From: Nemertoderma westbladi
Lineage: Eukaryota; Animalia; Xenacoelomorpha
Direction: 5' to 3'
Assembly (NCBI GenBank): GCA_032718475.1
Contig: JAUCBJ010000285.1
Span: 1 to 37,330, forward strand
DNA length: 37,330 bases
Under the pieces are notes generated by a model that was not told the DNA's origin, searched no databases, and was given only the letters and a program-made list of their open reading frames with translations. The translations under genes were made by a program, and so were the position numbers. Position 1 is the first letter of the stretch. Each line of letters opens with the position of its first letter. Below are positions 7,386 to 29,340 of this stretch, in pieces.

Positions 7386-8277
7386 GGGGTGATGATAACT
7401 CCACCTACTGGCTCCAGAAGTCGAGGAAATCCTGCCAAGTACCTAACTGATCTAGACTTTGCTGATGACTTAGGAGTACTCTCAGAATCATTAGAGGGAG
7501 CCCAACGGCTCCTCAGCTCATTAGAACATGCTGCTTCTAGTGTTGGTCTTTTTATTAACTCCAGAAAGACCAAAATCCTGACAGTTAACTTTGAAAGTCC
7601 TCAGCAAGTCTCTGATCGGATGAGCATAAGCTCAAAGGATGGTATGCTTGAGCATGTGGACGACTTCTGTTACCTGGGATCATGGATCCGGAAGTCAGGG
7701 GAGGACCTTCGAATACGTAAGGGAAAGGCATGGGCAGCCTTGAATAGGCTTTCCAGGATTTGGAAGTCACCGAGAATTAATCGGAAACTTAAGGTCCGAT
7801 TATTTAGAGCAGCAGTAGTTCCAGTACTCCTTTATGGGAGTCCATGCTGGGCTCTAACTGCTGGGGACACCAAATCTCTGGATGGCACATTCACAAGAAT
7901 GCTACGCCGGGTTCATTGTGTCAAGTACAATGCACACATCTCCAACCAGACACTATATAACATTGGAGGTGTCTCATTGGTTCCCCCAAGCTTGACACTA
8001 GAACAAAATCGCCTCCGCTTTGCAGGACATTGCTTTCGCCGTGAGGACCAGCCAGTGCATAATCTTGTACTTTGGCAGCCTCATGGAGTGAATAAGCATG
8101 GTGGACAGCCCATGACTTTCTTGAGACGCATCTTAAAGGACACTGGTCTTAAAGATGCGGATGATCTAGCAAATGTCATGGGTGATAGGGAGTTGTGGCG
8201 GTGCAATTTTGTTGACAAGCCGGCACAGCATTCTTAAAAATGCAGCTGCAATGCAGCATGCCGATCCTAGTAGTAGT
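7386..8277 (+). mobile_element. RTE-clade non-LTR retrotransposon, 3' part of RT plus (TAG)n tail
   Basis: DLDFADD, FCYLGS, LLYGS, RLRFAGH motifs; stop at 8237; tail TAGTAGTAGT to 8277. Near-identical to 34130-35030. The ORF-track start at 7362 lies in element A sequence. Confidence 0.93.
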
Positions 8278-11200
8278 TCCATCATCTCCAGCGATCGTTT
8301 CTCATCAGTGGACATGGTTAGGTCATATCCACCGGGTTCCATTGCGTCCCTATCCAGCCATTCGACGGTTCTAGCTCCTGTCTCGAGGTCCTGGCGTATC
8401 AATTCCTTCTGCAATTCCTCCTCACTGTATTGGAAAATGTCGAGGTCTCGATATCTAGCCACCTGACCCTCCACTATATCGGTATATAACAGTAGTCCAC
8501 GGGTTCACTATCTGTCCGGTCGTTATAGAGTGGTTCCGACAACCTAACATTATCGGGAATCAACTCCTCGTCCGACTCGCTAACGTCACTATAGTGGTCA
8601 ATACAGGTTCTCCTAAACTCGTCTATGTCTGGTGATTCTACTAACGGTGGTTGAGTTATAGGCTGTAATCCGTCGTGTCTATCCTTTGGCTTGTCACCAC
8701 CTGTAAACTCATAAGACATGGGTACTCGTGTATACCAACCTAGTATAGTCCTATGGGCGTGTGGTCCATTTACATGCGGCTCAGCTGGTCTCGTTTCCCA
8801 TATTTGGTGTGCGATCAGCTGTTCTGCACCAATCAACATAGATACATTCCTATAACCTACCTGGTATCTCGGTACTCTGAGCTTGTCAAAATACTCCTGT
8901 GCTATGGGACTCATCGGCGGCACCTTACCTAACTCCCTGCCGAACCCCTTCATAGCTAGACACTTGAATCCGTCCAATGGCAACGCTCTCCGTTCTTGGC
9001 GAGTGTGCTGGGGACTGGTACTAGGGAGTCTAGTTCTACCGAAATCCTGTGTCCCTTGAGGTCCCCTACCCCGTGCATGAACTTTAACTCAATTTGGATC
9101 TCCTCGGCGTCCTGGAAGCTGGAAACGGCTCTCGCTACTTCCTCGTCGATATAAGATAATGTGGACGCAATGTCCAACATCACATATATTCTCTTTGATC
9201 CCTTATCTCCGGTAAGTTTCACTGGAATCACGCTGAATATTTCCAACATGGCTGATGACAAATGCATCCGCGCGCTGGTCGATGAACTATCCGCGGTGAA
9301 ACCTTGGCAGGTCACCTCTCTTGTGCTCGCCTCGCCATCCTTGTCCGACGAACCTGGTTGATAACCATCATCCTGGATACCGGTGTACGTATTTCTTCTT
9401 ATCGATACGGGATCTCTGCTCCCCTTCCTTTGAGGATTTCGCTGTAAGTAACGGTCCGTTCGGGTATGGAAATCCGCATGTAGCAACTTGTGATGTAGTC
9501 TGCCGCATTCCATGCATCCATCCTTACTGTTTGGCACTGCCGCCGTACATGACCTGGCGCAAGACATGCCCAACAGGTGTCCAACGTCCGCACTTGAACT
9601 CTTCTCTGTTCCGAAGTTAATTCTTTGAACCGTCTGCAACTGTCTAACTTATGGTCGTCAGATCTTACCTCCTTTAGTAAGCAGAATTGGCAACCTACAA
9701 ATCCATCCGGCAACTCCTGTTGCTTTAACTTAGGTCTATCTGACCGCTCACCTGACCATACTCGCGAGTCTGATCTAAAGGCAGGGGTACTCGAATTATA
9801 TCTGTCTACTGAGTTAAAAGTCACAGTGGTCCTGTCATCGTCAAAACTTACCATTGACTTACCGGTAACAGGTTTAGATTCTCTCATATTCTCCTCTGAG
9901 AAGTTTGATTTCATCGCTGCTACCGCATCTGTGGCTATCATGTCATGGATATGTTGAAGTGTCAACACCTTACCTTGACCCTCCAACTTATTTTCTAATT
10001 TGCGCCATTTCTGTCTGTAACGCATGTTTAAACGTCTTATTATGCTCTTCAAAACTTCGGCGTGATCACCATGATGAGGTAGATTCACCGTCCTCAAGAT
10101 GTCTAATGCGTTCGAAATAGCGTTCGCTAAGTTCAACAGCTCTAACGGAGTTGTAATCCTTCCGCCCTTACCCAAGTCTTCCACTATCGACTGTGCCATC
10201 TTGGTTTTATTCCCGTAGAGGTCGCTAAGCGTCTTCATTGCTAACTCAAATGCTCTTTCATTGTCGACGAAGTTGTCAGCAATGGCTCTAGGTTCTCGAT
10301 CCAGCATCAGAAGCAGATAGTTGAACTTCTCATTGGGAGTAAAGGTGCTGTTGGTCAGCTGTTCGTCGACATAGGTTTTGAACATCCTCCAATGTCTATG
10401 GTTGCCCATAAACTTTTGGGGTTGTTGCGTCGGCAGTCCTTGCCTAGCGGCAAACTTACCTATGTCTCTAAGGATTGCGTCATTCTGGGTTAACAAATGG
10501 TTTAGTTCTGCAGGGTTATTAAGTCTGGTCCTTTCCCGGTGGTTCAAAGTTACCTGCTCCGCGTCGGTCCTTCTTTCCTTATAGTTTCGGGACTTCTGAC
10601 GTCTCATATCTTCCTCTTCATCGCTTGAGTCTGTGTCAGTTCTCAGCGCTCGTGTTGGTTTGCGCGCCGAAGCCCTGACATAGGCTTCCTCTATAAATTT
10701 CTCCGCCGAGTTCTCGAAGTTGGGATTATAAATCGTAGGGACAGGCGTTCTTACCTGAGGTCTATGTGGTATAGTTGCCTCCGATATGCGTACTCGTTGA
10801 CTAGGTTGGACTTTATCTAACTCAGGCCTGCTAGGATTAGAATTACTTCTTACCTGGGCTGCTTCCTTTAACTGCAGGTTACTAAGCATGTCCGTTATAG
10901 GTTGGATGTGCGGCGATATAGCTTGCGCTAAACTAGCACTTAACTCATCCCTTGTAATAAATTCCTGGCTAGGGTTCTGTTGTATAGTCGGCTCTATCTG
11001 AGTAATCCGCTGTCTCTCATATGATCCCTCTTCTGGTTTAACCCGGAAGTTCTCCGTCGAACTGGGTCGGCGCTCCGTCCGCGTATTCCAAACCCGCGGG
11101 TTCGGTTCGCCCAATACTCGGCCCGTCGGAGTTTCTCCTCTAAACTCTTCTTCCTCTCGTTCAGTATGTAGTGGTGCGGTGTCCTGATGACGCGGATCCT

Positions 11201-13955
11201 GCGCGATGGGTGAAGCACTAATACCAACTGGCGTGCGATATGTAGAGAACGGTTTAGCGATCCGTGTACTTGTAATAGCTGGACCGGGTATAGGAATTCT
11301 GGTCGTCGTCAACTCGCGTATAGTCGGAGTTCTCGCCTCCTGTTCGGCCTTCTGCAGTGCAAACAGTTCTCGCAACTCAGTACCTACACTCGCCCCACAT
11401 TCTTCGATCATTCGCATTCCCTTCTCGGCGATTTCATTCGCCTTCCTGGTCCGTTCTTCGCTCTCTAAGTTTAGTTCCTTGCGCTCGCGTTAGAGTTGAA
11501 GCTCGCATTTCTTCTGTTCACGCTCGAGTTCCTTCTGTTCGCGTTCGAGTTGAAGCTCACGTTCCTTCTGTTTGCGTTCGAGTTGAAGCTCATGTTCCTT
11601 CTGTTTGCGTTCGAGTTGAAGCTCGCGTTCCTTCTGTTTGCGTTCCGCTCGTTCACGCTTACTTATGTCCTCCAACTCTCGTAGCTCTGCATCCAGTGTG
11701 CGCTCCCGTTCCCGCTCGGCCTCCTTCCGTGCTTCCAATGCACGCAAAACTTCCGCCTGTTGTTCTTCCAGTCGGTGTCTTCTTTCCTCCGCCGAGTTGT
11801 GAGAAACAATGGACCTAGCGCACATAACTTTCCCTCGCGCGTGACTAACCTGGGAATCGCCACTGTCTCAAGATGCGTCGTCGGGTGGAGTTAACGTCCT
11901 CTGTCGGATATTGTCCGTCGTCGGTAGCACCTGGCCCGGTAACACCACTCCACTCTGCATCAGCCAGCTGGTAACTTCCCTCTGATACCTGCGCTCTTCT
12001 TTCGCTTGTGTCCTTCTGGGCTCCTCCCGGAGGCGCACCCATGAGGCGGACACCTTTCTACGGAGGGTGGCCCGATGCTTCCTGGGTTCTGTTTTCGGTC
12101 CCCCGATCACACCGGCACAGCTCGTCGAATGTGTAGCCAGATGGGCGGCTACTGTCAACTCACTGTGGCCTGACTGTACATTGAGCCAACTCAAAGTATA
12201 ACAAAGAGTCAACCGGCAGGTAGACCAGTCGATAGCGATCGAGCATCAAGGTCGCCCTTGGGCCTAACCGACGGTCTTGTCCCGAGCGGGCTTGCGCTAC
12301 CCAACATGGAATATTGACACGTTTTCACCTGCCTCACCGGCAGTATTGAGGGGACACCATTCCACAACAATACTGACTAGCTCGAAAGCTAGGAACAAGT
12401 AACCACTTACCAGTCACTGTACACGTGTACTCAACAGATGTTCACAATATCAAGTACACTACGGTAAACACAAAATCGGACACATACCATGCACACACAG
12501 AAGACATAATTGGAAGGACAAAATCGGTGTCAAAATCAGGAGGGACTAGTTGTATCGACTATAGACATCGCGAAAAGAAAGTCGAGAGTCGAGAGTTTAT
12601 TTTACCGTCAGGGCAAAATAACTTGTGTGTACAAAGCATGCTGGGGCGCAGTAAAGTATGGTCCTACTAATACCAGCAGCATCTGGACCATCCGGCAAGG
12701 TTTCCCACACTCACTCACAGTGGCCATACATACAATCACGTGTACTCACGCACCCACAGTGACAAAGCTCATCTCAGACACAAACACACCCAAAGACCAA
12801 TCAGCTGAACATGGAGACAATAACATATAGTATCAAAAAAGCGGAACAGCTGTCGGTCAATGGCACACATCCAAGCCCCAAAGCTAACTGTCACTGGTCG
12901 CCCACATACAAATCACAGTTCACACCACATGAACCACAAATCACGCCATGCCACCACCCATACTGTGTACAGGACTGGTAGTACGGCAACAGGCCGACTA
13001 GATGGTACCACGGCACCATGTCGATTCATGGTTCGCTAGACACAAGGGCCTTCAGTATCTCCCTTGCACTTAGAGACAATTTAACGTGCCCCCAGACCCT
13101 CGCGAGTCTGCCGCCGCCTGCTCAAGACACCCCTATAGAGACCTCATCTCTTTAGGTATCTTGCGTCTCTTCCCGCTCCACTAAGTTTCTCGACTCTGCG
13201 TCACTCACCTGAGTCGCCTGCGCTTGTGATGCCCATAGCAACCAGTTCTCCGTCCTAACTCGTCGAAATCGCTCCAATAACGCGCGGTGCTCCAACAAGG
13301 CTGCCAAAACCCTGTCGTAAACCCTCATCGCCACGTCGCTCGACTGAGAGTCCACTGCTCTCTTCGCTAGGACTGCAAGCTCCTCTGTCTGCTTGAACAA
13401 TGCTGAGTAGTATCCCCTTCTAATCTCTACTAACCCTTCCCTTCCGATGTTACCAGAGTTGGCTAGCATCTTTCTTACCTTATCCGCCGTCCGAGTTATA
13501 TGTCCGGCATGCGCGCGAAGTTTCTTCTTTATCGCTATGTCTAGTTCTCTCTCGCTTACCTGACTCACACTCGGTGGACTTGAAGGATTATTTCGGGAAC
13601 TACGGGTACTCCTTATAGCCGCTGGGACCACGGCACTTACCATACCCACAGTTCTGGAAACTGGGCTCCGGGCTTTCGCTTCTGCTACACTACTCTCCCT
13701 ATCACTCACCTCTGGCCGGGCTGCTGTACAATCCTTCCTTACAGTAGTGGTAGGGGATCCTAATACTATTACTTGAGGTCCTTGTTCTTCCTCACTAGTT
13801 ACTGTCTCGTCCTCCTGTTCACTTACGTCAGCGTCGCTTGCTGCGTCGTCATAGTCGGCATTGTCATCGACAGTTATATTAACGCTATCATCAGTCAGCG
13901 GTCCAGCCGCCGTCTCATAGCTGTCTTATAGTGCCTCCTTCTCTGAGACACTCAT
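8278..13955 (-). pseudogene. Decayed BEL/Pao element B gag-protease region
   Basis: ATG 13955 with an early stop, then LRAHAGHITRT (13152-13709). ORFs 11868-12212, 11490-11825 and 9399-11417 share one frame split by nonsense codons. Gag core QKFMGNHRHW...AMKTLSDLYGN; knuckles CQFC..H..C, CWACLAPGHVRRQC, then a frameshift to CMECGRLHHKLLH; degenerate protease MLDIAS; further frameshifts near 8983 and 8474; cut by the LINE at 8277. Confidence 0.85.
11490..11650 (-). repeat. 33-bp coding tandem repeat (ERKQKERELQL) in gag B
   Basis: About 4 copies of GAGTTGAAGCTC..GTTCCTTCTGTTTGCGTTC encoding an E/R/K/Q coiled coil. Confidence 0.85.
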
Positions 13956-17438: not shown

Positions 17439-17538
17439 GGCACTTCAAATATTGAAAAATACGAGATTCGGAAAATAAGCAAAGTTGAGATTTCAACGCA
17501 CATTTATAGGTTTTCTGGACCGCTGAATCAATTGAAAG
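17439..17538 (-). repeat. Left part of an inverted ~175-bp satellite-like unit split by element C
   Basis: Joined to 28606-28670, its reverse complement matches the units at 28690-29036 (ACTTTCAAT.GATT.AGCGG.CCAGA.AACC.ATAAA..TG.GTTGAAAT). Confidence 0.8.
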
Positions 17539-18527
17539 TGTTGCCGTTATTCCTACACCAGGGGGGAAAAACGCCGATGCTGGAGACGTGACTTAACAGA
17601 CCACCGAGCCCCGGCCAGTCACCGGATATTGATTGTGGGGAGGGAATATTTTCTAAGATGCAAGTTTGCGGTTGAGAAAAGCTGCATTAGTTGGATATAC
17701 TCTTTAATGTAACTGAACTCTGTTGAACCTTGTTCAACAATATTGAAACTTGATTAAGAATAATTTTGGGCTTCCCCAAATCAATATACACCAAATATTC
17801 ACAATAATTATACACGATAATATAAATCCCTACGGTATATTATTTAATAACCCACTGTTCGCTCAGAATTTTAGCCTACCTAATGTTCCTCAGATTTTCC
17901 CTCAGTCCCAGTCTTAGTACCGTAGTGTCGGTGTCGGTCGACCCTTTCGCATGTCCGTCCCACCCCTCACGAACCCCGAAGGGATTGGTCATCGAGAACC
18001 AGTACGGCTTAGGTCAGGGGGCAGTCGTTAGTTGGCCACCTGTTCACGTGTCCGCTCCACCCCTCACGAACCCCGGGGTTCGATCATCGAGAACCAGAAC
18101 GGCTTGGCTACTAAGGGGCCGTCGGTGCCCGTCGCAAATCCCTGACACAAGCAGTCAGCGTTCCGAGTTCTTTTCAGTCTCGTAGTAGCTGCCGTTGGCC
18201 AGGGACCGCTAAGGGCAGTCCTTGTCCTTTAGGCCTGGCGCATTACCAAATCCACCCCTACAGGCAGCAGGAAGTTGGCCAGGGCCTAATAGTACTCAGG
18301 CTAACCTGAATACTGCTTGCATTTTCCATCCCCCCTGGCCCTTATAACTATGAAATTATTCCCGTACCCTGTAAGTTGCCCCAAAGTTCGCCCATAAATC
18401 GCCCCCAGTTTATTGAATGTGCCCAAAACCCATGGTCCCGCACCCAGTAGTAATATCGGAATAATCAATTTTAAATAAATACAAAAATATTCAACTCGCG
18501 TTATGGAAAGTTGAAATACCGCGAACA
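17539..18527 (-). repeat. 3' LTR of element C (989 bp)
   Basis: Direct repeat of 26994-28600 lacking 27401-28018; two substitutions noticed by eye (GATTGG/GATCGG, TTCACG/TTCGCG). Confidence 0.96.
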
Positions 18528-18536
18528 GTCCCCCCC
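18528..18536 (-). promoter_or_regulatory. Polypurine tract of element C
   Basis: Minus strand reads GGGGGGGAC immediately before the TGTTCGCGG LTR start, which fixes the element orientation. Confidence 0.85.
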
Positions 18537-18693
18537 AATGACCTTCGTGAAGTCTGTCGGTCGATTGAGTTTGCGTAGGTCATTCCCAATATAAAAAATC
18601 CCAAATTTAATATTGCATAGTTTTTAATTAATTTGGCCTAGAGTTTGTATAAAAATAAATGTTCGATAAATGTTCCTGGAATATCCCAATCCA

Positions 18694-21294
18694 TTATTTC
18701 TTTTTCTGGTACGCCTTTCGTCTCTTCGCCCTTCGACTCTCATCGATCGCTATGGCTGGTAGAGGAGCGTCAACATCCATTGTGAGTAACGCTTCGGCTT
18801 GTCTCCTGGCGGCTCTTCCTTTCGAAGGCAACGGTATCATGTCGGTTCGTCTTTCCAACTCGGAGTTGCGTGCCTCTAGGAACCATTCTCCGTCACCGAA
18901 CTCCTCTTTATACGAATATAATCGTCTAATAACTTCGAATGGACCGAATAATCCGGCGCTCAGTAGCAGATCCACGTAATGGAAGGGTAGCGAGGCCGAC
19001 GTGTGGAGGCGTTCCGGGAAGGAGAAATATCCGCACGCCATCTCCTGCGCGATATTCCGAGCGTTTCTCCGAAACTTGGTCTTTAAGTGGCTGTTTGCGT
19101 ATGTTTCAAACATGACCATATTTCCCATAGCGGTAACGTCTTTGGTTGGACATTTGATATAGCAGCGGGGGCTAGAGGAATGTCCACGGAAACCGCACGT
19201 GGTGCAGAGGTTATAAAGAATCGGGCAGACGGAAACGTCGTGGCCCGATGTCGCGCAGTATGGGCAATAGAGTATCCCGAGGAGCTGGAGGCATGAATCG
19301 GTAACCCGATTCCTTCTGCTGCGTGGGCACTGCTCCGAACCGCAGTCGCCGCATACCTCCAACTGCATCTCTCGACCGGGGAATATCGGAATCGGGACGC
19401 CGGCGTAGTATTCGAGTCGTCGGTCGCTCTTCGGAATATTCTCGGTGGTCGGTAGCCCGCGGAATGCTGGGCTTTTGCGTAGTATGTTCTCGCTTCGATA
19501 ACCCTCTTTGTGTCCCGCTGGTCTCAGCTCGGACGACCGTTTCTGGCGGTGGATCCATTCAGTTTGCTCGGCGTACCAACGAGTTAGTCGCATAGGGTCC
19601 TGAGGAACGGCGGGTGTAGAAGCTACCGCTGGTCGGCGAAGGGGTGCCGGGGTTTTAGATGGAGGGATACCGAGGAGATCGTCGGGTGTCGGCGCATCGC
19701 TGGGGCCTTCCTCGACCAGTATCGCTGAGCGGGTCCGTTGTTGGCTGGTACTCGGAATCTCCGACGACCAATCTTCGCCGCCCGGGAAAGGATACGGGGA
19801 TAACCGTTGGCATATGTCGCCGAAGTCGCTCAATGCAGCCGTAGTGGCTACCTCTCTCGCGGGGCTACCGGAGCCGCGTGGGGTGTAGACGCCTGCTCTC
19901 TTCATCGGTTCGGCCGAGGCAACCCGTTTGGCGGCTGGTCCATACGCGGCCTCCGGCTCGAGTTGTCGCTTTGGGGTGGAGAGTAGAACACCCTCGTTTA
20001 GCCATATCTCTTCCCCTTCCGAGGAGATCAGAGGCTCCTCCGCACCGAGAAGTTCGGTAATCGTAGGGATGTCGTAAGGTCCGCTCTCGTCCCAGGAATC
20101 GATAACGGCGGGTGTTTTCGATTCTCCCGGTGTAATGTTCTCGACCGCTTTAAACGCATGGTTTATAACCTCGTTCCAATCGTAGTCGACGAAGGAAAGG
20201 GGGACCGCCGTAATAAGGTTATCGAGAGTTTTACAGATAAACTTAGCGACGGTGTAGCATTCCATAACGACGTAGATATAGCTCCGTCGATCGGGATTCT
20301 CCCACCTTTGGTGTATCGTCCACTTCCGATCGACGTCCTTCCATCGACCCTCTCGCTCGCTCTTTATCTCTAATCCCGGGTATCCGCCGTATATTTTATT
20401 ATAGTCCCGGAATTTCTGGGGTTTGAAGTCGATACCGCCGTTGAGCACAGCGAGGTAGCCGATCCCGGATTTCGTCGGTCTCACTTCTTGGAATCCTCGC
20501 ATGAACTCGGCGAATCGTAACCAGGCTAGCAGCGTTTGAGTGTCGATGCAATGGCTAAGTGCGTTGAGGTCGTTTCGTCGGTTTCTTCCTGCGGGAGCGT
20601 TCGCGTAGTCGTTCCGGACGTCCGCCTTGATATCCGACCCGATTTTAATGACGTCGAAGTCGAAGAGGATCTTTTGGATATCCGGAGGCAGCAACCAGAT
20701 CGCTCCGGCTGCCTGCACTTCCTGTCTGGGTGTCAGGAATATTCGGCACACCAGTACCAAACCGTCCAGGGTTCCGAGGACGACGACTAAGGATCGACCG
20801 TATTCTTTCGCCCCGTACTTTTCCTGGTAGTCGTCGCGGTTTTGGATAATCGATACGCGTTCCTCTCGAAGCGTCGCCGTACACTCCGACAGGTTTTCCC
20901 AGTGGGCGAGGTACGTACTCTTGTCGTCGACGAAACTTTGACATCTCGCCAACGTAATCGCTTTCGAGGTGGGCGTCGCGTTTCCCTCGTTGTCGTAGAT
21001 CAAACATCGGGATCTGTAGACGCTCTGCCGGAACGTTTCCCAAAACGACGAATCGTCCCCTCCGGTTGCCTTTGCGTTCCGAGTTCTTTTCAGTCTCGTA
21101 CTAGCATCGGCTAACCGGAGGGCTCGTAGATTCTTAGAATCCGGTCCCTCTCGCCCGGTGAATTTAACTTCTCGTACGTTCTCATTTAGCAGAATGCTCC
21201 ACTTTGTATCAAAGTCAGGGGATCCAGGTTGCGAATATTCCAGTAGATCTATCGTGTTACGTAATTCGCCGATAATTTGGCGATTTGGGTCCAT
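18694..21294 (-). CDS. Accessory 866-aa protein: degenerate DEDDy (WRN/RNase D-like) 3'-5' exonuclease-like domain, disordered linker, Cys/His zinc knuckles
   Basis: Intact ORF in the env position. LPPDIQKILFDFDVIKIGSDIKAD, CIDTQ, SGIGYLA and RWENP..YIYVVME resemble the WRN-type exonuclease pattern (by eye). C-terminal CGDCGSEQC, CPYCATSGHDVSVC, CTTCGFRGHSSSPRC; basic tail RRAKRRKAYQKKK. Confidence 0.75.
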   Translation of the reverse strand: MDPNRQIIGELRNTIDLLEYSQPGSPDFDTKWSILLNENVREVKFTGREGPDSKNLRALRLADASTRLKRTRNAKATGGDDSSFWETFRQSVYRSRCLIYDNEGNATPTSKAITLARCQSFVDDKSTYLAHWENLSECTATLREERVSIIQNRDDYQEKYGAKEYGRSLVVVLGTLDGLVLVCRIFLTPRQEVQAAGAIWLLPPDIQKILFDFDVIKIGSDIKADVRNDYANAPAGRNRRNDLNALSHCIDTQTLLAWLRFAEFMRGFQEVRPTKSGIGYLAVLNGGIDFKPQKFRDYNKIYGGYPGLEIKSEREGRWKDVDRKWTIHQRWENPDRRSYIYVVMECYTVAKFICKTLDNLITAVPLSFVDYDWNEVINHAFKAVENITPGESKTPAVIDSWDESGPYDIPTITELLGAEEPLISSEGEEIWLNEGVLLSTPKRQLEPEAAYGPAAKRVASAEPMKRAGVYTPRGSGSPAREVATTAALSDFGDICQRLSPYPFPGGEDWSSEIPSTSQQRTRSAILVEEGPSDAPTPDDLLGIPPSKTPAPLRRPAVASTPAVPQDPMRLTRWYAEQTEWIHRQKRSSELRPAGHKEGYRSENILRKSPAFRGLPTTENIPKSDRRLEYYAGVPIPIFPGREMQLEVCGDCGSEQCPRSRRNRVTDSCLQLLGILYCPYCATSGHDVSVCPILYNLCTTCGFRGHSSSPRCYIKCPTKDVTAMGNMVMFETYANSHLKTKFRRNARNIAQEMACGYFSFPERLHTSASLPFHYVDLLLSAGLFGPFEVIRRLYSYKEEFGDGEWFLEARNSELERRTDMIPLPSKGRAARRQAEALLTMDVDAPLPAIAIDESRRAKRRKAYQKKK

Positions 21295-21851
21295 ATTTAC
21301 GATTATATCCGTTACAAATTAGATCAGTTAATTATAAGTCCAGAAAGTCTGAAACTATAGCGATAGCAGAATAATTCAGTTTTTTTTATTTAATTCAGTT
21401 TATTAAATAACATTGCTATATAGACATCTATCATCTTATTGCTAATACATTCAGCATTTACAGTTACTATAGCTATACATAATATCCAACCAGTTTTTTA
21501 TGACTTTTTTGTCCTTTTTTTTCCAATTCTTTTCTTTGACCTCTTTTATACCTTTTTTTTGTCTTTTTTCATTTCATTATTATTTCATCTCATTTCATTT
21601 ATTTCCACATATATTTCAACACATTTAGTTCCACCATTTATTTCACATTTATTTATTTCCACATCATCATTGGGTTTATAGCCCCCCGGCTATCATCATT
21701 TGTTATAAGCGCAGCACCAGGGTGCGCATCATTTCATTTTCATCAGTATACGCGTCATCATTCAGGTTTATAGTAGAGTTGTCTGATCCTTTTCATCGTT
21801 TCCAACTATATTCAATCATTTTCTTTGGTTAATCTTTGTCGTGGAAGGGGT

Positions 21852-22262
21852 GTTACGCGTCAATCTGGGATCTACAGCTGGACTCGTTACACCGCCTACG
21901 CCCCAAACTGCGCACGTAACGGACAATGAAGACGCTAGGAGTGAAGTCACGTGGGTGCACCAGGGACCCACCAGAATAACACTCCCAACAACATAAAGCT
22001 CAGTCGACGAAGTCATGTGGGATGGGGTTACGCAACATTCTGGGATCTACAGCTGGACTCGTTACACCGCCTACGCCCCAAAATCCACGCAACGGTCCCA
22101 CCAGAATAACGCGACTGAGAAACATAAAACCCTCTATCGTCGAAGTCATGTGGATGCACCATGGACCCACCAGAATAACGGGATAGAGGGGGTGTTGCGC
22201 GGCAATCCGGGATCTACAGCTGGACTCGTTACACCGCCTACGCCCCGAACTGCGCACGCAAC
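21852..22262 (-). ncRNA. Cluster of six predicted structured RNA modules (two families, three copies each)
   Basis: An invariant 38-mer at 21867, 22042 and 22209, and a second motif at 21938, 21999 and 22130, each closed by complementary arms that differ between copies. Confidence 0.65.
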
Positions 22263-22541
22263 GGACAACATAACATACTGCAATGAATACAATGAATTCC
22301 ACTTCAAATCTTTTCCATTTCCAATAATCCAATATCATTGGTCCCGATGACCAAAATCAGGGTAAACAATACATAAACGACCCTGCGTCAGTCGAAACAT
22401 CTGCAGGGTGATGCTGGACTCCACATAACACACGAGGAAACACAAATACCATTGCGTGGTTACAGTTGGTTTAAGGGGGGTCCATAACTCGTTGTCGATA
22501 AATCACAGTTTTTAAGAGTTTGTCAACATGATGAGAAGGGT

Positions 22542-23894
22542 TTAAACGCATTTATAATTGTCACCAATGTCTGCAGCAGGATCCGTAGTAGGGAACTTAT
22601 CACCTCTTGTAGAATCACCACTGTCATTGCCTTCAAGAAGGCACAGCTTCTGGATAGGGCGTTGGTAGTGGCCCTTTGCCGTTCGTATCGTCACAGTCCT
22701 CGCAAGTCCGTCTTTGCTTGGGTGTATGGTCACGACCCGCGCCACAGGCCAGTGAACGCGGTCTTTGAGATCTTCTTTAACTAGCACCATGTCGCCAACT
22801 GCGACGTTCCGGTAGGTGTTGTTCCATTTCCTCCTGGTCCGGAGGGTTATGAGGTATTCCTGGGCCCAAATTCTCCACCAATGCGCTGCCAACGCTTGGG
22901 CCTTTTTCCAGTTTGTATGTTTCGCGATCTCGTTGGGATCCGGGAACATGGTTTCCGGGAGGAGGTGGGTTTTGGGTCTCCCCAGTAGATGGTTAGGAGT
23001 GAGGGACTCAACTGAGGCGTTCGCCATCCGGGTATTATGGCAGATTAGTCCGTGCTCTCCCATTATTGGTGTCAATGTTATCAACATCATTATTATCATC
23101 AACAACCTTATTAGCCACCAAAGCATGGGCACGCGCCAATGTCCGTCTTTAAACGTGGCCTGGTCGAGAACGTCCATACAATATTGGTCCTCTTCGGATG
23201 GATTTTCGTCCTTTTCCGCGAACTCCTGGGTCTCCAAATTAAAATATTTCGTCATCTCTCGTTGGGTTTTCTCGGTTTCCAGAAACAAATCCTCGTCGAG
23301 ATCCGAAGCTGAGCAGTAACCCACGGAGGTTACATTCTCTTTAATCTGACATTTGGGAAGGTAGGTATAGGTGTCCGTGGTTTCCTCCTTAATGCCGCAG
23401 AGTGTCCATCCCATTATTGTTCGTTCAGCATAAAATCCGTCATCCTGGTTTATAGATCGGGCGATATCTCCGGTGGGGATGTGTAGTTCCGGTGTATCAA
23501 GTCCGATCAGTAGGGTGATACGGTTTACGTCCAACTGCGGACACCTCAGGTCTACATCGTCCCGGTCCAATTGTATGAGGGGGGCGTACTCGGCTGATTG
23601 TCGGAACCGCACCCGGAGGTCTGTGTGTACCAAGGCGTTCTTTATGGTTAACTTAGCCGTTTCGTAGCCCTTCATCACTCCTTCCATCTGGAGTTGCACC
23701 TCCCCGGACTCTACCTCTCTGTTATCGGTGATGGTTTGTATGGGCCGTTTACAAGGCTCATATTCTAGGCCGAGTTGCTCGAGAAAATCCCGGTCGATGA
23801 TGGTTCCGTCGGACCCGTTATCGAGGAATGCGAGTGTCGTCAAAGATTTGCCGACTCCTTGGATCCTTACTGGGATTACCTTTGCGAAAACCAT
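22542..23894 (-). CDS. Aspartic protease fused in frame to the BEL integrase C-terminal (DUF5641-like) region; RT-RNaseH-IN core deleted
   Basis: AFLDNGS; RTIMGWTLCG; RT N-terminal remnant DGHWRVPMLW; then directly SLTPNHLLG, WWRIWAQEYL, VGDMVLV, WPVARV, DGLARTV, RPIQKLCLLE. Confidence 0.9.
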   Translation of the reverse strand: MVFAKVIPVRIQGVGKSLTTLAFLDNGSDGTIIDRDFLEQLGLEYEPCKRPIQTITDNREVESGEVQLQMEGVMKGYETAKLTIKNALVHTDLRVRFRQSAEYAPLIQLDRDDVDLRCPQLDVNRITLLIGLDTPELHIPTGDIARSINQDDGFYAERTIMGWTLCGIKEETTDTYTYLPKCQIKENVTSVGYCSASDLDEDLFLETEKTQREMTKYFNLETQEFAEKDENPSEEDQYCMDVLDQATFKDGHWRVPMLWWLIRLLMIIMMLITLTPIMGEHGLICHNTRMANASVESLTPNHLLGRPKTHLLPETMFPDPNEIAKHTNWKKAQALAAHWWRIWAQEYLITLRTRRKWNNTYRNVAVGDMVLVKEDLKDRVHWPVARVVTIHPSKDGLARTVTIRTAKGHYQRPIQKLCLLEGNDSGDSTRGDKFPTTDPAADIGDNYKCV

Positions 23895-23905
23895 GTAGCG
23901 GCGAT

Positions 23906-26509
23906 TTATAAGTTAATCGTGGCCGAAATATTTGTTACTTGTGGTGTAGCGGTGGAGATTTTAAACGGGTTGGTTTCTCTCCGTTGGGTTGTCCGGGTTC
24001 CTTTGAAGATGTGGTTTGTTTCTCCTCTTCGCCTGGCTTCGATCCGAAAGGGGAGGGTAGTAAAATCGAAGTTCGCGGGGATGTGGAGGAGCGTGTGATG
24101 GCGTTGGTCGTTACAGACAGTACAGCATGATCTTTGGTCGCACTCCCGAACATAGTGACCTGTTCCAAGACACCGGAAGCATCCTCGGTGTTTCATTATC
24201 GCCTCGAAGCGTGGGACAAGTTCGGCGAACTGAAACTTTCTGCAGAATTCCACTTTGTGTTTCTCCCCACAGAAGAGACATATAGTGGAGGCTGTGGTGC
24301 CTTCCCTTTCGGGTGCCCAATTCGCTAGGTAGCATGCCCATTCTTCTGCTAAGGTCGGTTCCTCGTAATCCTCGTCATCCGAGTCCTCAGCCATACTGAT
24401 GGCCATCGCACTCACAGGAGTAGGGCGGAATCTTGGGTTTGGAGTGGGTGCCCTGCTCTGGTAATTGCTCTCCATTGCGTCCAACTTGGCGAGACTTTGT
24501 TTCGAGAACATCGAGTCATTCATGGCTTCGGAGATATCGTCCAGGAATGCCGACATTTCGAGGAAGCTGGGATCTTGATCTGGATGTCTGCGCCGGAGAT
24601 CTACGCATTTATAGGCCCACTTACTTTGCAGCCATCCGGGGAACTTCCGGGCGATCTGTCGGAGGTTTAGAATGTTGTTCACCTGGTCCTCCTTATTTAA
24701 GGGTTTCAGAGTGTAGTAGGCATCCTTCATGGAATCTGAGAATTCCTGGAGGTTCTGTGGGTCCCCTAGTGATCCCGCGTCTTGTATCAGTTTCTCTAGA
24801 GTTTTATTAATTATAGTTCCGGTATTTCCGTATCTTTTATCTAGAGTTTTCCATGCGTCATAGTATGCCTCATGAGAACCTCCCTCAAAACATGCAACAA
24901 TTCTGCGTGGTTTGTCACCCAGGTATTGCGATAAATATACCAATTTCTGTGCGTCGGCTATGTCCGTTGATCCGATCTGCGCAAAGAACCGTTTCTTGAA
25001 TCTGAGGTAATCGACGGGATCTCCTTCGAAGGTGCGAATCTCCATCTTCGGCATGGCAAGGCGGTTCTCCAACGCCCGGATGATGCTGACGTCGTCTGAA
25101 CTGGAGTGACTCGGAGGGTTATAGTCATTGGCACTCACTCCCATACTTGATGGATCAATAATAGGTGGAGTTTTAATAATGACGCGGCTGCGAGTTTGTG
25201 GTGTTGATGTAAATGGGTTGTTTGATCGGGGAGTGGCGTCCCGTTCCGAGTCCTTTTCAGGCTCGTACTTGGGTACACTCGCTGTCGTGGTGTTGGATAG
25301 GAAATAGGGTTCCTCATTCTTTAGCCTAGCCGGTGGGGGATGGAACACCGGTGCTTGTGCCGATAGCGTAGACTGTTTGGTAGGCGGGATTTCGGGTTTC
25401 GGAAGTTTCGCCGCTGTCGGTATAAATGACTTTTCTAATTCCGGTACCGGGATTGGTTCATATTCCTGATCTATATCCCTCTCCCAGTCCTCGTAGAGTT
25501 GAATATCTCGTTCTATAAGTGCGGCTTCGTATTCCGCGAGTTTTGCAATATCCGCGTTCTTTTTGTGGATGAGAATTGCTTGGGCCTCGGCGTGTTGTTT
25601 ACGCATTTCTGCTTCCCATTTACGTTGTTCGATCTCCCGTTCGGCCTCTCGTCCGCGTTGTTCGGCCTCCTGTTTGCGTTGTTCGGCCTCGTGTTTGCGC
25701 TGTTCGGCCTGTCGTTCGTCCTCTCGTTTGCGTTGTTCGTCTTCTCGCCTGCGTTGTTCGGCCTGTCGTTCGTCCTCTCGTTTGCGTTGTTCGTCCTCTC
25801 GCCTGCGTTGTTCGGCTTCCTGTTCACGTTGTTCGGCCTGCCGTTCGGCCGCTTGTTCGGCCTCTCGCCTTTGTGTTTCTGCAGCTAATACATCTTGCTC
25901 GGCTTGCAGTTGAATATACTCATCTTCCATCCGAGCTTTGAGGGCTAATGCCTTCCGCTCTCGCAGTTGGTCTCGGAGTGGCGGCGCCCCTTGAGAACTG
26001 CGCGCTGAGCCGGATATCTCGCTCCTAGCGCTGGAGTGCTGATTTCTGGTGGACCCCATTCTTTTGCGATGTACTCCTGTCCTGATGCTGGAGGATCGTA
26101 CTGATTCCGCGTCTGTTCTTTCAGCCCTCTTGTAATACTGTTCCTCATAGCCTCTCACAAGGCTGAGGGTCCTCCGGTGTTGTTTGCGGAACCCATCTAG
26201 ATGTACAACGTGTTCTTCCAGCTTGGGGTAGTTTTCCAGATCGGTGGGGGGAACAAGCTCTTGGTACGCCTGTATCATTCTTTCGTACCGCTGTAGGATA
26301 TTTCGGATACTTTGAAGCTGAGTTTGTACCTCATTGAGGGGGGTTTTGACTCCCTTGAGTTGTTTCTCCATCCGTTGATACGCTCGGGTTACTCCGCCTT
26401 TAAGAGCCCCTAACCGACGGGTCATGTTTTTGACGTTTGGTACCTCGTCGGCTTCCGAGTCTGTGTGGTGATCCATCTCGTCGGTATCGGATACGTTATT
26501 TGTTGTCAT
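23906..26509 (-). CDS. gag: BEL/Pao Gag, 867 aa
   Basis: LKGGVTR N-terminus, EQR-rich coiled-coil repeats, RTFEGDPVDY...AWKTLDKRYGN core, three knuckles CLFCGEKHKVEFC, CFRCLGTGHYVREC, CTVCNDQRHHTLLH. Confidence 0.93.
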   Translation of the reverse strand: MTTNNVSDTDEMDHHTDSEADEVPNVKNMTRRLGALKGGVTRAYQRMEKQLKGVKTPLNEVQTQLQSIRNILQRYERMIQAYQELVPPTDLENYPKLEEHVVHLDGFRKQHRRTLSLVRGYEEQYYKRAERTDAESVRSSSIRTGVHRKRMGSTRNQHSSARSEISGSARSSQGAPPLRDQLRERKALALKARMEDEYIQLQAEQDVLAAETQRREAEQAAERQAEQREQEAEQRRREDEQRKREDERQAEQRRREDEQRKREDERQAEQRKHEAEQRKQEAEQRGREAEREIEQRKWEAEMRKQHAEAQAILIHKKNADIAKLAEYEAALIERDIQLYEDWERDIDQEYEPIPVPELEKSFIPTAAKLPKPEIPPTKQSTLSAQAPVFHPPPARLKNEEPYFLSNTTTASVPKYEPEKDSERDATPRSNNPFTSTPQTRSRVIIKTPPIIDPSSMGVSANDYNPPSHSSSDDVSIIRALENRLAMPKMEIRTFEGDPVDYLRFKKRFFAQIGSTDIADAQKLVYLSQYLGDKPRRIVACFEGGSHEAYYDAWKTLDKRYGNTGTIINKTLEKLIQDAGSLGDPQNLQEFSDSMKDAYYTLKPLNKEDQVNNILNLRQIARKFPGWLQSKWAYKCVDLRRRHPDQDPSFLEMSAFLDDISEAMNDSMFSKQSLAKLDAMESNYQSRAPTPNPRFRPTPVSAMAISMAEDSDDEDYEEPTLAEEWACYLANWAPEREGTTASTICLFCGEKHKVEFCRKFQFAELVPRFEAIMKHRGCFRCLGTGHYVRECDQRSCCTVCNDQRHHTLLHIPANFDFTTLPFRIEARRRGETNHIFKGTRTTQRRETNPFKISTATPQVTNISATINL

Positions 26510-26697
26510 TGTAACGCCTCGTCGATGGCGAGATACGCGATGTCGTAAAACAGTTCCTCGTAGGTATTGTACTCAGCTTGAACCACCCGAACAGTAATCC
26601 TGAATCGTCCGACGTTCGTTCCTTGTACCTCAACTTCGACGTGCCAGATTCCTGGCTCAACTTGAATTATATCAATGGGTGTGATCGATACTTCCAT
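26506..26697 (-). CDS. 63-aa upstream ORF overlapping the gag start (ATGA)
   Basis: ATG start; its TGA overlaps the gag ATG; protein-like alternating hydrophobic pattern followed by an acidic helix. Confidence 0.5.
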   Translation of the reverse strand: MEVSITPIDIIQVEPGIWHVEVEVQGTNVGRFRITVRVVQAEYNTYEELFYDIAYLAIDEALQ

Positions 26698-26863
26698 TCC
26701 CTGTTAACAACTCTCCAAATATGTGATCTGCCGACTACGAATTGGTTAGATCGAGTTTGCTGATTAATTAAACCACGACTTTGTCTCAACTCAAATACCA
26801 GAGTTTCCTCGTAGTGGGTGCTGGCAAGCACGTAGAGAGTTTTTGAAGAGTATTGAAGGATTC

Positions 26864-26993
26864 TCAACTTCCACCAGTTGAAGTTGACCACGATAATTAT
26901 TCTTAATTTTGACACCCTGTCAAAATTAACCACGTGAATTATTCTTAATTTTGACACCCTGTCAAAATTAACCGCATTAATTATTCTTAATTT
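26864..26993. repeat. 42-bp-period hairpin repeats at the expected PBS position
   Basis: TTAATTTTGACA-CCC-TGTCAAAATTAA at 26903-26929 and 26945-26971; variant TCAACTTC-N8-GAAGTTGA at 26864-26887; AATTATTC at 26895, 26937 and 26979. Confidence 0.9.
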
Positions 26994-28600
26994 TGTTGCC
27001 GTTATTCCTACACCAGGGGGGAAAAACGCCGATGCTGGAGACGTGACTTAACAGACCACCGAGCCCCGGCCAGTCACCGGATATTGATTGTGGGGAGGGA
27101 ATATTTTCTAAGATGCAAGTTTGCGGTTGAGAAAAGCTGCATTAGTTGGATATACTCTTTAATGTAACTGAACTCTGTTGAACCTTGTTCAACAATATTG
27201 AAACTTGATTAAGAATAATTTTGGGCTTCCCCAAATCAATATACACCAAATATTCACAATAATTATACACGATAATATAAATCCCTACGGTATATTATTT
27301 AATAACCCACTGTTCGCTCAGAATTTTAGCCTACCTAATGTTCCTCAGATTTTCCCTCAGTCCCAGTCTTAGTACCGTAGTGTCGGTGTCGGTCGACCCT
27401 GTCGCGTGTCCGTTCCACCCCTCACGAACCCCGAAGGGAACGATCATCGAGAACCAGCACGGCTTGGCTAAGGGTCGGTCCAGTCGGTAGACTCTGTCGC
27501 GTATCCGTACCACCCCTCTCGAACCCCGAAGGGTTCGGTCATCGAGAACCAGTACGGCTTGGCTAGGAGTCTGTCATGTCGGTGGACCCGTTCGCGTGTC
27601 CGTTCCACCCCTCACGAACCCCGAAGGGTTCGATCATCGAGAACCAGAACGGCTTGGCTAGGGGTCCGTCAGTTCATCACAGAAACCCAACCACCTAGGC
27701 TTTCCGAGTCCGTTTCAGGCTCGTAGTCGCTTCAGCAGCCGAGAAACTGCTCCGAACAGTCGGTAGGCCAGTAGAGTCTAGTCGAGTCTAGTCCTTTGTC
27801 TTTCGACCCCATCGCGTGTCCGTTCCACCCCTCACGAACCCCGAAGGGAACGATCATCGAGAACCAGAACGGCTTGGCTAAGGGGTCTGTCGTCGGTTCC
27901 CGTCGCAAATCCCAGTCAAGCAGTCAGCGTTCCGAGTTCTTTTCAGGCTCGTAGTAGCTGCCGTTGACCCGAGACCGCTAAGGGCAGTCCTTGTCAAACC
28001 AGTCCTGTGGCCAGCCCTTTCGCATGTCCGTCCCACCCCTCACGAACCCCGAAGGGATCGGTCATCGAGAACCAGTACGGCTTAGGTCAGGGGGCAGTCG
28101 TTAGTTGGCCACCTGTTCGCGTGTCCGCTCCACCCCTCACGAACCCCGGGGTTCGATCATCGAGAACCAGAACGGCTTGGCTACTAAGGGGCCGTCGGTG
28201 CCCGTCGCAAATCCCTGACACAAGCAGTCAGCGTTCCGAGTTCTTTTCAGTCTCGTAGTAGCTGCCGTTGGCCAGGGACCGCTAAGGGCAGTCCTTGTCC
28301 TTTAGGCCTGGCGCATTACCAAATCCACCCCTACAGGCAGCAGGAAGTTGGCCAGGGCCTAATAGTACTCAGGCTAACCTGAATACTGCTTGCATTTTCC
28401 ATCCCCCCTGGCCCTTATAACTATGAAATTATTCCCGTACCCTGTAAGTTGCCCCAAAGTTCGCCCATAAATCGCCCCCAGTTTATTGAATGTGCCCAAA
28501 ACCCATGGTCCCGCACCCAGTAGTAATATCGGAATAATCAATTTTAAATAAATACAAAAATATTCAACTCGCGTTATGGAAAGTTGAAATACCGCGAACA
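26994..28600 (-). repeat. 5' LTR of element C (1607 bp)
   Basis: TG...CA termini; direct repeat of 17539-18527 plus 618 bp; followed by the TSD. Confidence 0.96.
27394..28195 (-). ncRNA. Array of six ~70-nt conserved cores forming predicted rod-like hairpins inside the LTR
   Basis: Cores start at 27401, 27496, 27591, 27811, 28019 and 28116; covarying closing stems; C(UUCG)G cap on the element-sense strand in units 1-5 (shortened in unit 6). Confidence 0.7.
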
Positions 28601-29036
28601 GAAAGTATTATAGAACCCTGAAGACTTAGTGGTTCGGCATTTTTGGTGCACCAAAATTAGGGAGGGGCACTTTTTCCCTGATTGTGCTGTACCAATAATG
28701 ACGTACCAGTAAGACTTGAGGCTTCAATAATACTTTCAATCGATTCAGCGGTCCAGATAACCTATAAAAATGGGTTGAAATGAAAACCTTGTGGTATTTT
28801 CTGAATATCGTAATTTTGAAAATTTGATGTAAGTCTACTTGCCACGCCCTAATTTTGGTGCACCAAAAATGATGTACCACTAAGAATTGAGACTTCTATA
28901 TTACTTTCAATCGATTAAGCGGGCCAGAAAACCCATAAAAATGCGTTGAAATCAAAACTCCTGAGTATTTAACGAATATTGCAATTTTGAAAATTTGAAG
29001 TGCCCCGCCCTAATTAATTATAGTGCACCAAAAATT
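28601..29036. repeat. ~175-bp satellite/MITE-like repeat units with palindrome TTTTGGTGCACCAAAA
   Basis: Remainder of the inverted unit (to ~28670), then two diverged forward units (~28690-28860, ~28860-29036). Confidence 0.75.
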
Positions 29037-29340
29037 CCACTTCCCTTACATTCTTATATATGTAGAGTGCAGAGTGTAGTAGAGTGCTGCATACGAATCA
29101 GAATCAGTAAAAAAAGCCCCTATATAAAGAATTACTATCTCACAAATGACCTTGTAAAACTCGAAAATTTCAAAAAATTTCTGCTGGGGACCAAATTTTG
29201 AGGTGGCACCCACATCGAGAAGTTGAAATCTAATTGCAACGCCGTTTTTTTGCAAAAGATGCGCCATTAAATTTGACTAATTCTCGTAAACAATTGGGCT
29301 GGTACATAATGTTGTTGCATAGATACAGTAATTAAAAACT

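What the first reader, a model, noticed from the sequence alone, without database searches (positions are those of the whole stretch)
18694..21294. Extra ORF in the env position encodes an apparently catalytically altered DEDDy exonuclease fold plus CCHC knuckles
Seen: no signal peptide or TM anchor evident, so not an envelope. Motif spacing resembles WRN/EXD/Mut-7-type exonucleases, but the putative ExoI D-x-E reads H-W-E (~20896-20904) and the ExoIII YAAxD reads YVVME (~20260-20275); the ExoII D (IKAD) is kept. The C-terminus has CX2CX4C, CX2CX4HX4C and CX2CX4HX5C clusters and an NLS-like basic tail. Known: DEDD-fold proteins such as Mut-7 and EXD1 act in small-RNA silencing; from memory, extra DEDDy ORFs are reported in bdelloid rotifer LTR elements (needs checking), and I do not know this architecture in BEL/Pao. 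Inference: an RNA-binding pseudo-nuclease or silencing suppressor.
Basis: partly seen in the sequence, partly recalled or inferred. Interest (0 to 1): 0.82.

Follow-up and report, generated by a model that had tools for sequence, protein, structure and literature searches.

The report
Retrotransposon carries its own RNA-trimming nuclease

Summary
The 866-aa ORF (18694-21294, minus strand) is real. It is ORF3 of a young BEL/Pao LTR element (17539-28600; 5-bp target duplication; LTRs differ at 2 of 989 bases) whose pol has lost RT, RNase H and the integrase core. A family profile hits EXD2 (E 1.5e-7), and a predicted model matches only DnaQ-like/DEDD folds (best Z 9.1). H-W-E lies in a ~49-aa insertion and its Glu is private to this copy; the true ExoI is D101-N-E103. 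With D225 and Y341-x3-E345 the site reads D-E-D-E plus Tyr, and two distant homologues share that last Glu. Ten distant homologues (21-28% identity where aligned) share the triple-knuckle module; seven carry the exonuclease domain, intact in three or four and degenerate in three. Variation among copies is mostly synonymous (20 of 26 common variants). Best reading: a likely active, knuckle-tethered exoribonuclease used against host small-RNA silencing (0.4); a non-catalytic RNA adaptor is the main rival. DEDDy ORF3s are known from bdelloid LTR elements, and this scan noted Rrp6-like ones on other DNA. I found no report of this EXD2-like plus knuckle family or of a BEL/Pao host. Homologue context and activity are untested.

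The parts
26994..28600 (-). 5' LTR (1607 bp, TG...CA), 618 bp longer than the 3' LTR through extra tandem hairpin repeats
17539..18527 (-). 3' LTR (989 bp, TG...CA); 2 mismatches against the 5' LTR over 989 aligned bases
28601..28605 (-). target-site duplication, 5' copy (CTTTC); the 3' copy is at 17534-17538
   Evidence: empty-site joint 17533-28601 in runs X1, X3, X4
18529..18536 (-). polypurine tract just before the 3' LTR
   Evidence: read from the sequence
23906..26572 (-). gag frame (888 aa stop to stop): DUF1759 E 2.3e-15, CCHC knuckles
22542..23912 (-). pol remnant (456 aa): aspartic protease and DUF5641 only; RT, RNase H and integrase core absent; junction near 23075-23136
   Evidence: loose ends and lower depth at the junction
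18694..21294 (-). ORF3, 866 aa, no Pfam family at E<=1
20155..21042 (-). DEDDy exonuclease domain, aa 85-380
20986..20994 (-). ExoI, D101-N-E103
20620..20622 (-). ExoII, D225
20260..20274 (-). ExoIII, Y341-x3-E345 (Glu where DEDD enzymes have Asp); register inferred from motif and homologues
19375..20124 (-). Pro/Ser-rich, unconserved, predicted disordered linker (aa 391-640)
19162..19353 (-). three zinc-knuckle-like clusters (aa 648-711); nine Cys/His invariant in 14 of 14 aligned sequences
18925..19140 (-). conserved helical extension after the knuckles (aa 719-790; F729, E730, A733, T739, G755, Y773, L777)
18697..18735 (-). basic tail, NLS-like (inferred)
21077..21100 (-). 24-nt hairpin motif inside ORF3; five more copies at 25244 (gag), 18161, 27702, 27930, 28234 (LTRs)
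21844..22268 (-). three copies of an 83-nt predicted hairpin between pol and ORF3

Best explanation
ORF3 is an accessory gene of a BEL/Pao retrotransposon family that encodes a predicted EXD2/WRN-type DEDDy domain with residues D101, E103, D225, Y341 and E345, and it likely works as a 3'-to-5' exoribonuclease whose zinc knuckles would hold single-stranded RNA, most likely to blunt host small-RNA silencing of the element. Shown: position in the element, open frame, family-wide domain architecture, mostly synonymous variation. Predicted: the fold and the ExoI and ExoII registers (well supported), and the ExoIII register (moderately). Inferred: two-metal catalysis with Glu as fourth ligand; RNA rather than DNA as substrate (by analogy with trypanosome RNase D, exonuclease plus CCHC fingers); nuclear import by the basic tail; counter-silencing as the purpose. 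This copy lacks RT and integrase, so it would have moved with enzymes from complete copies (inferred).
For: Element anatomy. Family: 10 homologues at E<=1e-3 among 1.84 billion representatives. Fold: family profile hits EXD2 6K17 at E 2.8e-6 and 1.5e-7, and Egalitarian at 7e-4; ESM Atlas 0.92 to a cluster with PF01612 on 50% of members; all 50 rows of the wide structure search are by title DnaQ-like exonuclease-fold proteins, best Z 9.1, rmsd 4.2, 169 aligned. ExoI: profile without the query; block score reached by 0 of 1000 shuffles, HMM blocks by 3 and 2 of 500. Six enzymes whose chains start at the ExoI strand begin aligning at model residues 94-97; if ungapped, this puts their first catalytic Asp on residue 101 (their residue numbers are recalled). 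Tetrad kept by alignment in P0004, P0007, P0010; P0013 has ExoI, ExoII and a Y-x3-D motif two columns off. Selection: 25 of 40 listed variants synonymous in aa 82-381, 20 of 26 among common ones, 17 of 21 along the ORF, against 22-30% expected; none of the 40 listed touches the five site codons. Analogy: TbRND fingers bind the RNA that its exonuclease trims (PMC7797062 passages).
Against: No activity or expression data. ExoIII has Glu, not Asp; I recall that this swap cripples Klenow exonuclease but could not find it in the library. ExoIII lies in a low-confidence part of the model (pLDDT about 40), scores only 18 of 1000 against shuffles with anchors I chose, and is not covered by the HMMER alignments to solved structures. 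One MAFFT run and one BLAST-type alignment (P0007) aligned aa 137-158 to the homologues' N-terminal strand instead; one search left ExoI in a gap. The model was built on my alignment, so it is not independent; Foldseek gave no E<=0.001 (best 5e-3). Three of seven homologues with the domain have lost the site (P0005, P0008, P0009), and Egalitarian keeps putative catalytic residues that are dispensable (PMC13186709 passage). The variant tables are cut to the best-supported rows (40 of 162). Nothing here identifies the substrate.
Confidence: 0.4

Rival explanations
1. A non-catalytic RNA adaptor. The exonuclease fold and knuckles would bind the element's own repeated hairpins and route unspliced genomic RNA to export, transport or packaging, as Egalitarian does for localisation stem-loops and CERV does for Cer1 RNA. 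The acidic residues would be kept but dispensable.
For: Egalitarian is among the nearest solved relatives and binds the I-factor stem-loop without its putative catalytic residues. CERV is a retrotransposon accessory protein with a Cys-rich loop and candidate NLS that is needed for gRNA export (PMC10309623 abstract and passages). The element repeats a 24-nt hairpin six times, twice inside coding frames (0 expected). The knuckle module is conserved in 10 of 10 homologues, the full site in only 3-4 of 7.
Against: All five site residues are present or conservatively changed across proteins only 21-28% identical. No sequence link to CERV was tested. No binding data; the hairpins could serve Gag or host factors.
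Confidence: 0.25
2. An active exonuclease working inside the element's own replication cycle: trimming the 3' end of genomic RNA or primer, or tidying cDNA ends.
For: Same site evidence as the best reading. Rodriguez et al. propose 3'-end processing of element RNA for bdelloid DEDDy ORF3s. The knuckles resemble nucleocapsid and Lin28 knuckles.
Against: Most BEL/Pao elements have only gag and pol, few with env (PMC3118150 passages), and the other BEL-type pieces in this window show no ORF3 match, so no core step needs it.
Confidence: 0.2
3. A dead or crippled pseudo-nuclease, now resting on the ExoIII Glu and the insertion next to ExoI; it would act as a decoy for host Nibbler/Mut-7/EXD1-type factors.
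For: Asp-to-Glu at ExoIII; a 49-aa insertion right after E103; three degenerate homologues; inactive Exd1 is among the structural matches.
Against: ExoI is intact. The Glu is shared with two distant homologues, and Asp stands there in another. Smaller insertions at the same loop occur in P0008 and P0010.
Confidence: 0.12
4. A captured host fragment drifting neutrally, or an unrecognised envelope gene.
For: The genomic context of the homologues could not be obtained, so some may be host genes.
Against: An 866-codon open frame; synonymous excess, P about 1e-6 to 2e-5; no frameshift indel carried by the three deep runs in 20150-21050; no signal peptide or anchor.
Confidence: 0.03

Closest known systems
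DEDDy ORF3 of bdelloid rotifer LTR retrotransposons Juno and Vesta (PMC5408684)
   Same: Separate ORF in the env position, DEDDy exonuclease fold, catalytic residues kept with one Asp-to-Glu change, no TM segment, function untested.
   Different: Those lineages are Juno/Vesta, not described as BEL/Pao. Their motif is DEED, here DEDE. In the parts read no C-terminal knuckle module is described (only a Cys-His-Cys motif in Vesta2/5), and intragenomic ORF3 variation (env and GDSL types) looked neutral. Direct sequence comparison was not possible.
Trypanosoma brucei RNase D (TbRND; PDB 7C42, 7C45)
   Same: DEDDy exonuclease followed by CCHC knuckles that hold the RNA substrate; hit by the family profile (E 1e-4 to 9e-4, mostly through the knuckles) and by the model (Z 6.9).
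   Different: A cellular guide-RNA trimming enzyme with four fingers and a short linker; here three knuckles behind a 250-aa disordered linker plus a helical extension. Likely convergent architecture (inference).
EXD2 / WRN / Nibbler (Mut-7) / RICE exonucleases (PF01612)
   Same: Best profile and structure matches (E 1.5e-7; Z 8-9); N-terminal strand-helix-ExoI layout in the homologues.
   Different: 12-18% identity, below the Pfam cut-off; 49-aa insertion; Glu in ExoIII; encoded by a mobile element.
Egalitarian ExoHD and C. elegans Cer1 CERV
   Same: RNA-binding use of an exonuclease-like fold (Egl); retrotransposon accessory protein with a Cys-rich motif and basic NLS (CERV).
   Different: Egl is a host dynein adaptor with LOTUS-like domains. 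CERV is made by splicing from gag and has G-protein-like and ring-forming domains, with no exonuclease mentioned in the paper.

Membership tests
BEL/Pao LTR retrotransposon | LTRs with TG...CA ends, target duplication, polypurine tract | tested here: met
BEL/Pao LTR retrotransposon | BEL-type gag (DUF1759, CCHC knuckles) and integrase C-terminal DUF5641 (that these mark BEL/Pao is recalled) | tested here: met
   E 2.3e-15 and 1.1e-30
BEL/Pao LTR retrotransposon | RT/RNase H phylogeny within BEL/Pao | not testable with these tools
   RT, RNase H and integrase core are missing from this copy; no genome is held
DEDDy (DnaQ-like, PF01612) exonuclease | RNase H-like DnaQ fold | tested here: met
   profile E 1.5e-7 to EXD2; Z 9.1, rmsd 3.2, 106 aligned to EXD2; model of moderate confidence built on my alignment
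DEDDy (DnaQ-like, PF01612) exonuclease | Pfam PF01612 gathering score | tested here: not met
   no hit for P0001; best member E 0.2, 11.9 bits against 23.6
DEDDy (DnaQ-like, PF01612) exonuclease | ExoI D-x-E and ExoII D | tested here: met
   D101, E103, D225; one alignment dissented on ExoI
DEDDy (DnaQ-like, PF01612) exonuclease | ExoIII Y-x3-D | tested here: inconclusive
   Y341-x3-E345: Tyr kept, Asp replaced by Glu; register from motif and homologues only
DEDDy (DnaQ-like, PF01612) exonuclease | Metal-dependent 3'-5' activity | not testable with these tools
   needs a bench assay
Pseudo-nuclease (EXD1/Maelstrom type) | Loss of the catalytic carboxylates | tested here: not met
   four carboxylates and the Tyr are present
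Envelope glycoprotein | Signal peptide, TM anchor, fusion-protein fold | tested here: not met
   simple hydropathy only; the model and its matches are exonuclease-like
Bdelloid retroelement DEDDy ORF3 pool | Clusters with Juno/Vesta/Athena DEDDy ORFs | not tested

The most novel reading that the evidence does not exclude
An old, unnamed family of retroelement-borne counter-defence nucleases (EXD2-like domain, triple knuckle and a new helical module) spread among invertebrate LTR elements. It reads a code of repeated RNA hairpins written into its own element, even inside gag and ORF3, to tell self RNA from the host silencing RNAs it destroys.
Probability: 0.1. Interest if true: 0.9.

Novelty: new variant of a known kind. 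Interest (0 to 1): 0.6.

Why it matters
What non-env ORF3 genes do is an open question, and the bdelloid DEDDy ORF3s were left without a demonstrated activity. This is a young, selected example in a different LTR clade, with a defined site to assay and candidate RNA ligands in the same element. If it suppresses small-RNA silencing it would be a rare animal retrotransposon counter-defence enzyme; if it is an adaptor it adds a new Rev/CERV-like solution. It also defines a protein family that Pfam misses.

Tried and rejected
Word-based homologue searches found nothing for the whole protein or for aa 80-390 among shorter proteins; the family profile found only P0004 itself. A single-sequence fold failed (pLDDT 31.8) and was not used. 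My first idea that ExoI was at aa ~148-153 was dropped. The idea that the insertion is a swapped or duplicated N-terminal strand had weak block support (32 of 1000 shuffles) but scored -2.7 bits by HMM, below the 25th best of 500 shuffles: not supported. The genomic context of homologues was sought for P0001, P0005, P0006, P0009, P0010 and P0013 in viral, metagenome and prokaryote-genome contigs: no locus; alignment queries were too divergent to run. No RNA holder was listed; run X6 is only guessed to be RNA and says nothing on expression. Rfam: 0 matches at E<=1 over the element. No tRNA gene. The sigma-70 scan is not meaningful for this DNA. Atlas search of aa 630-800 gave at best 0.86 (DUF8363, zf-CCHC), a lead only; the C-terminal module was not folded alone, so its fold is untested. 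phmmer of P0010 alone found no exonuclease. Summed contig depth was not used as a copy number. Complex prediction was not used: no binding claim is made.

Full report
1. The element. The ORF lies in an LTR element on the minus strand, 17539-28600. Both LTRs start TG and end CA, and CTTTC is duplicated at the flanks. The LTRs differ at 2 of 989 aligned bases, apart from 618 bp of extra tandem repeats in the 5' copy. Contigs of three public runs join 17533 to 28601, the empty site, so the insertion is young and not fixed. Inside lie gag (DUF1759 E 2.3e-15), a 456-aa pol remnant with protease and DUF5641 (E 1.1e-30) but no RT, RNase H or integrase core, and then the 866-aa ORF. That these Pfam families mark BEL/Pao is recalled. 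Loose ends and lower depth at 23005-23136 show that other copies leave this sequence at the pol junction. I infer that this copy is non-autonomous.

2. The protein family. Pfam has nothing for the ORF. A full HMMER scan of 1.84 billion representatives gave 10 proteins at E<=1e-3, and cluster look-up added 3 close members. None has an informative name. All 10 share the C-terminal module; 9 Cys/His and 6 other columns are invariant in 14 of 14 aligned sequences. Seven of the 10 also reach over the N-terminal domain. The family profile hits EXD2 (E 2.8e-6; 1.5e-7), Egalitarian (7e-4) and trypanosome RNase D. AlphaFold with the 14-row alignment gave mean pLDDT 46, with blocks of 62-83 over aa 81-100 and 171-260 and 59-89 over aa 671-800. 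Foldseek gave no E<=0.001, but its top rows are RICE, Egalitarian, EXD2 and Nibbler. VIA-align gave Z 9.1 to EXD2 (rmsd 3.2, 106 aligned), and in the wide search all 50 rows shown are by title DnaQ-like exonuclease-fold proteins (best Z 9.1). Z near 9 is only just above what unrelated models reach, and the model rests on my alignment, so the profile hits carry most of the weight.

3. The active site. A profile of six homologues without the query instead aligns aa 85-104 to the helix-strand unit ending in D-x-E, then opens a 49-residue insertion that holds H-W-E (E 7.6e-26 for one sequence). HMM versions are reached by 3 and 2 of 500 shuffles. In one search, E. coli ExoI, DnaQ epsilon, ISG20, phi29 and T7 polymerases and ExoX start aligning at model residues 94-97; ungapped, that places their first catalytic Asp (numbers recalled) at residue 101. 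The Glu of H-W-E is not shared: at least 99.8% of summed depth in 4 of 4 runs reads another base there. One more codon (187) is likewise private to this copy. Against this, one MAFFT run and one BLAST-type alignment matched aa 137-158 to the homologues' first strand; one search left ExoI gapped. ExoII D225 is secure (0 of 1000; aligned to EXD2). ExoIII is Y341-x3-E345, less secure (18 of 1000, anchors chosen by me; pLDDT about 40). By alignment P0004 and P0007 also read D-E-D-E and P0010 reads D-E-D-D. P0013 has ExoI, ExoII and a Y-x3-D motif that the aligner set two columns off. P0005, P0008 and P0009 have lost the site. So the family holds intact-looking and dead members, and this one looks intact. 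Whether Glu supports catalysis is open: I recall it is damaging in Klenow fragment, and one search found no paper on it.

4. Selection. Of the 40 variants listed for 20150-21050 (122 more not shown), 25 are synonymous; of the 26 that reach 5% of depth in one of the three deep runs (14 rows dropped), 20 are; of the 21 ORF rows among the 40 listed (770 not shown), 17 are. Expected is 22-30%; P is 1e-6 to 2e-5. None of the 40 touches the five site codons. The lists favour well-supported variants and the copies are related, so this is a sign of purifying selection, not a dN/dS estimate.

5. Mechanism. I commit to a likely active 3'-5' exoribonuclease whose knuckles hold single-stranded RNA, used against host small-RNA silencing (0.4). 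The architecture matches TbRND, where CCHC fingers grip the RNA that the exonuclease trims (PMC7797062, passages). The structural neighbours include Nibbler and Exd1; their piRNA roles are recalled, EXD1's also stated in PMC5408684. Most BEL/Pao elements lack any third gene (PMC3118150, passages), which favours an optional advantage over a core step. The substrate is inference. Rivals: a non-catalytic adaptor for the element's own hairpins (0.25; Egalitarian binds the I-factor stem-loop without its catalytic residues, PMC13186709 passages; CERV exports Cer1 RNA, PMC10309623 abstract and passages); an enzyme acting on the element's own RNA or cDNA (0.2); a dead decoy (0.12); neutral cargo (0.03). 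The element carries three families of repeated sense-strand hairpins, one repeated inside both gag and ORF3, with no Rfam match. Their link to ORF3 is a hypothesis.

6. Prior knowledge. PMC5408684 (parts 1-3 of 5 read: methods, results, discussion; figures and supplement not seen) describes DEDDy ORF3s in bdelloid Juno and Vesta elements, motif DEED, activity untested. PMC6431247, PMC5718144 and PMC3985635 (passages) add no BEL/Pao case, and PMC3118150 has no occurrence of 'exonuclease' in its main text (supplements not searched). Searches (listings) found no paper on a BEL/Pao exonuclease ORF or this exonuclease-plus-knuckle ORF3. The library lacks most subscription papers and Repbase; I recall without check that extra domains were described in some C. 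elegans BEL-like elements. An unchecked note of this scan (e1-7470661) reports Rrp6-like ORF3s in another invertebrate; searches by sequence and place found nothing.

7. Limits and verdict. I could not show that the homologues sit in LTR elements, nor expression, nor activity. The finding is real, its fold call is right and its pseudo-nuclease argument is wrong. New variant of a known kind; interest 0.6.

Noticed in passing
window 18161-18184, 21077-21100, 25244-25267, 27702-27725, 27930-27953, 28234-28257 (minus strand): A 24-nt motif occurs six times in the element, once inside ORF3 and once inside gag (0 expected by chance). The three copies folded give the same hairpin with an asymmetric internal loop (z -2.2 to -5.3), loop-E-like by my recall; 2 of 9 pairs show changes on both sides among 5 distinct copies (10 of 500 shuffles). 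No Rfam match.
   Followed up: partly
window 27387-28193 and 17932-18110: A 94-nt LTR repeat with a cUUCGg-capped hairpin, about six copies in the 5' LTR and two in the 3' LTR; 5 of 29 predicted pairs show two-sided changes. The two LTRs differ by 618 bp of these repeats although otherwise 2 of 989 bases apart.
   Followed up: partly
window 21844-22268: Three copies of an 83-nt long hairpin with an invariant 38-nt core between pol and ORF3; 3 of 25 pairs show two-sided changes.
   Followed up: partly
window 23075-23136: The pol junction holds a low-complexity filler that keeps the frame; contigs of runs X1, X3 and X4 cover it, so the deleted form exists beyond this assembly.
   Followed up: partly
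window 21320-21800: AT-rich spacer before ORF3 with a TATA-like word near 21549 and an acceptor-like word near 21350 (read by eye); possible internal promoter or splice acceptor.
   Followed up: no
window 2792-3805, 8166-11867, 32270-32741: Other, decayed BEL-type pieces (gag, protease-like, DUF5641-like), none with an ORF3 match.
   Followed up: no
window 7386-8277 and 34130-35021: A 892-bp RT-bearing (RVT_1, DUF6451) non-LTR fragment present twice at 99.2% identity.
   Followed up: no
window 17439-17542 and 28601-29038: The element sits inside an inverted/tandem repeat family (MITE-like or satellite) that flanks both ends.
   Followed up: no
protein P0005: This homologue has a truncated, degenerate exonuclease domain and two copies of the knuckle-plus-extension module, suggesting the module works on its own.
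   Followed up: no
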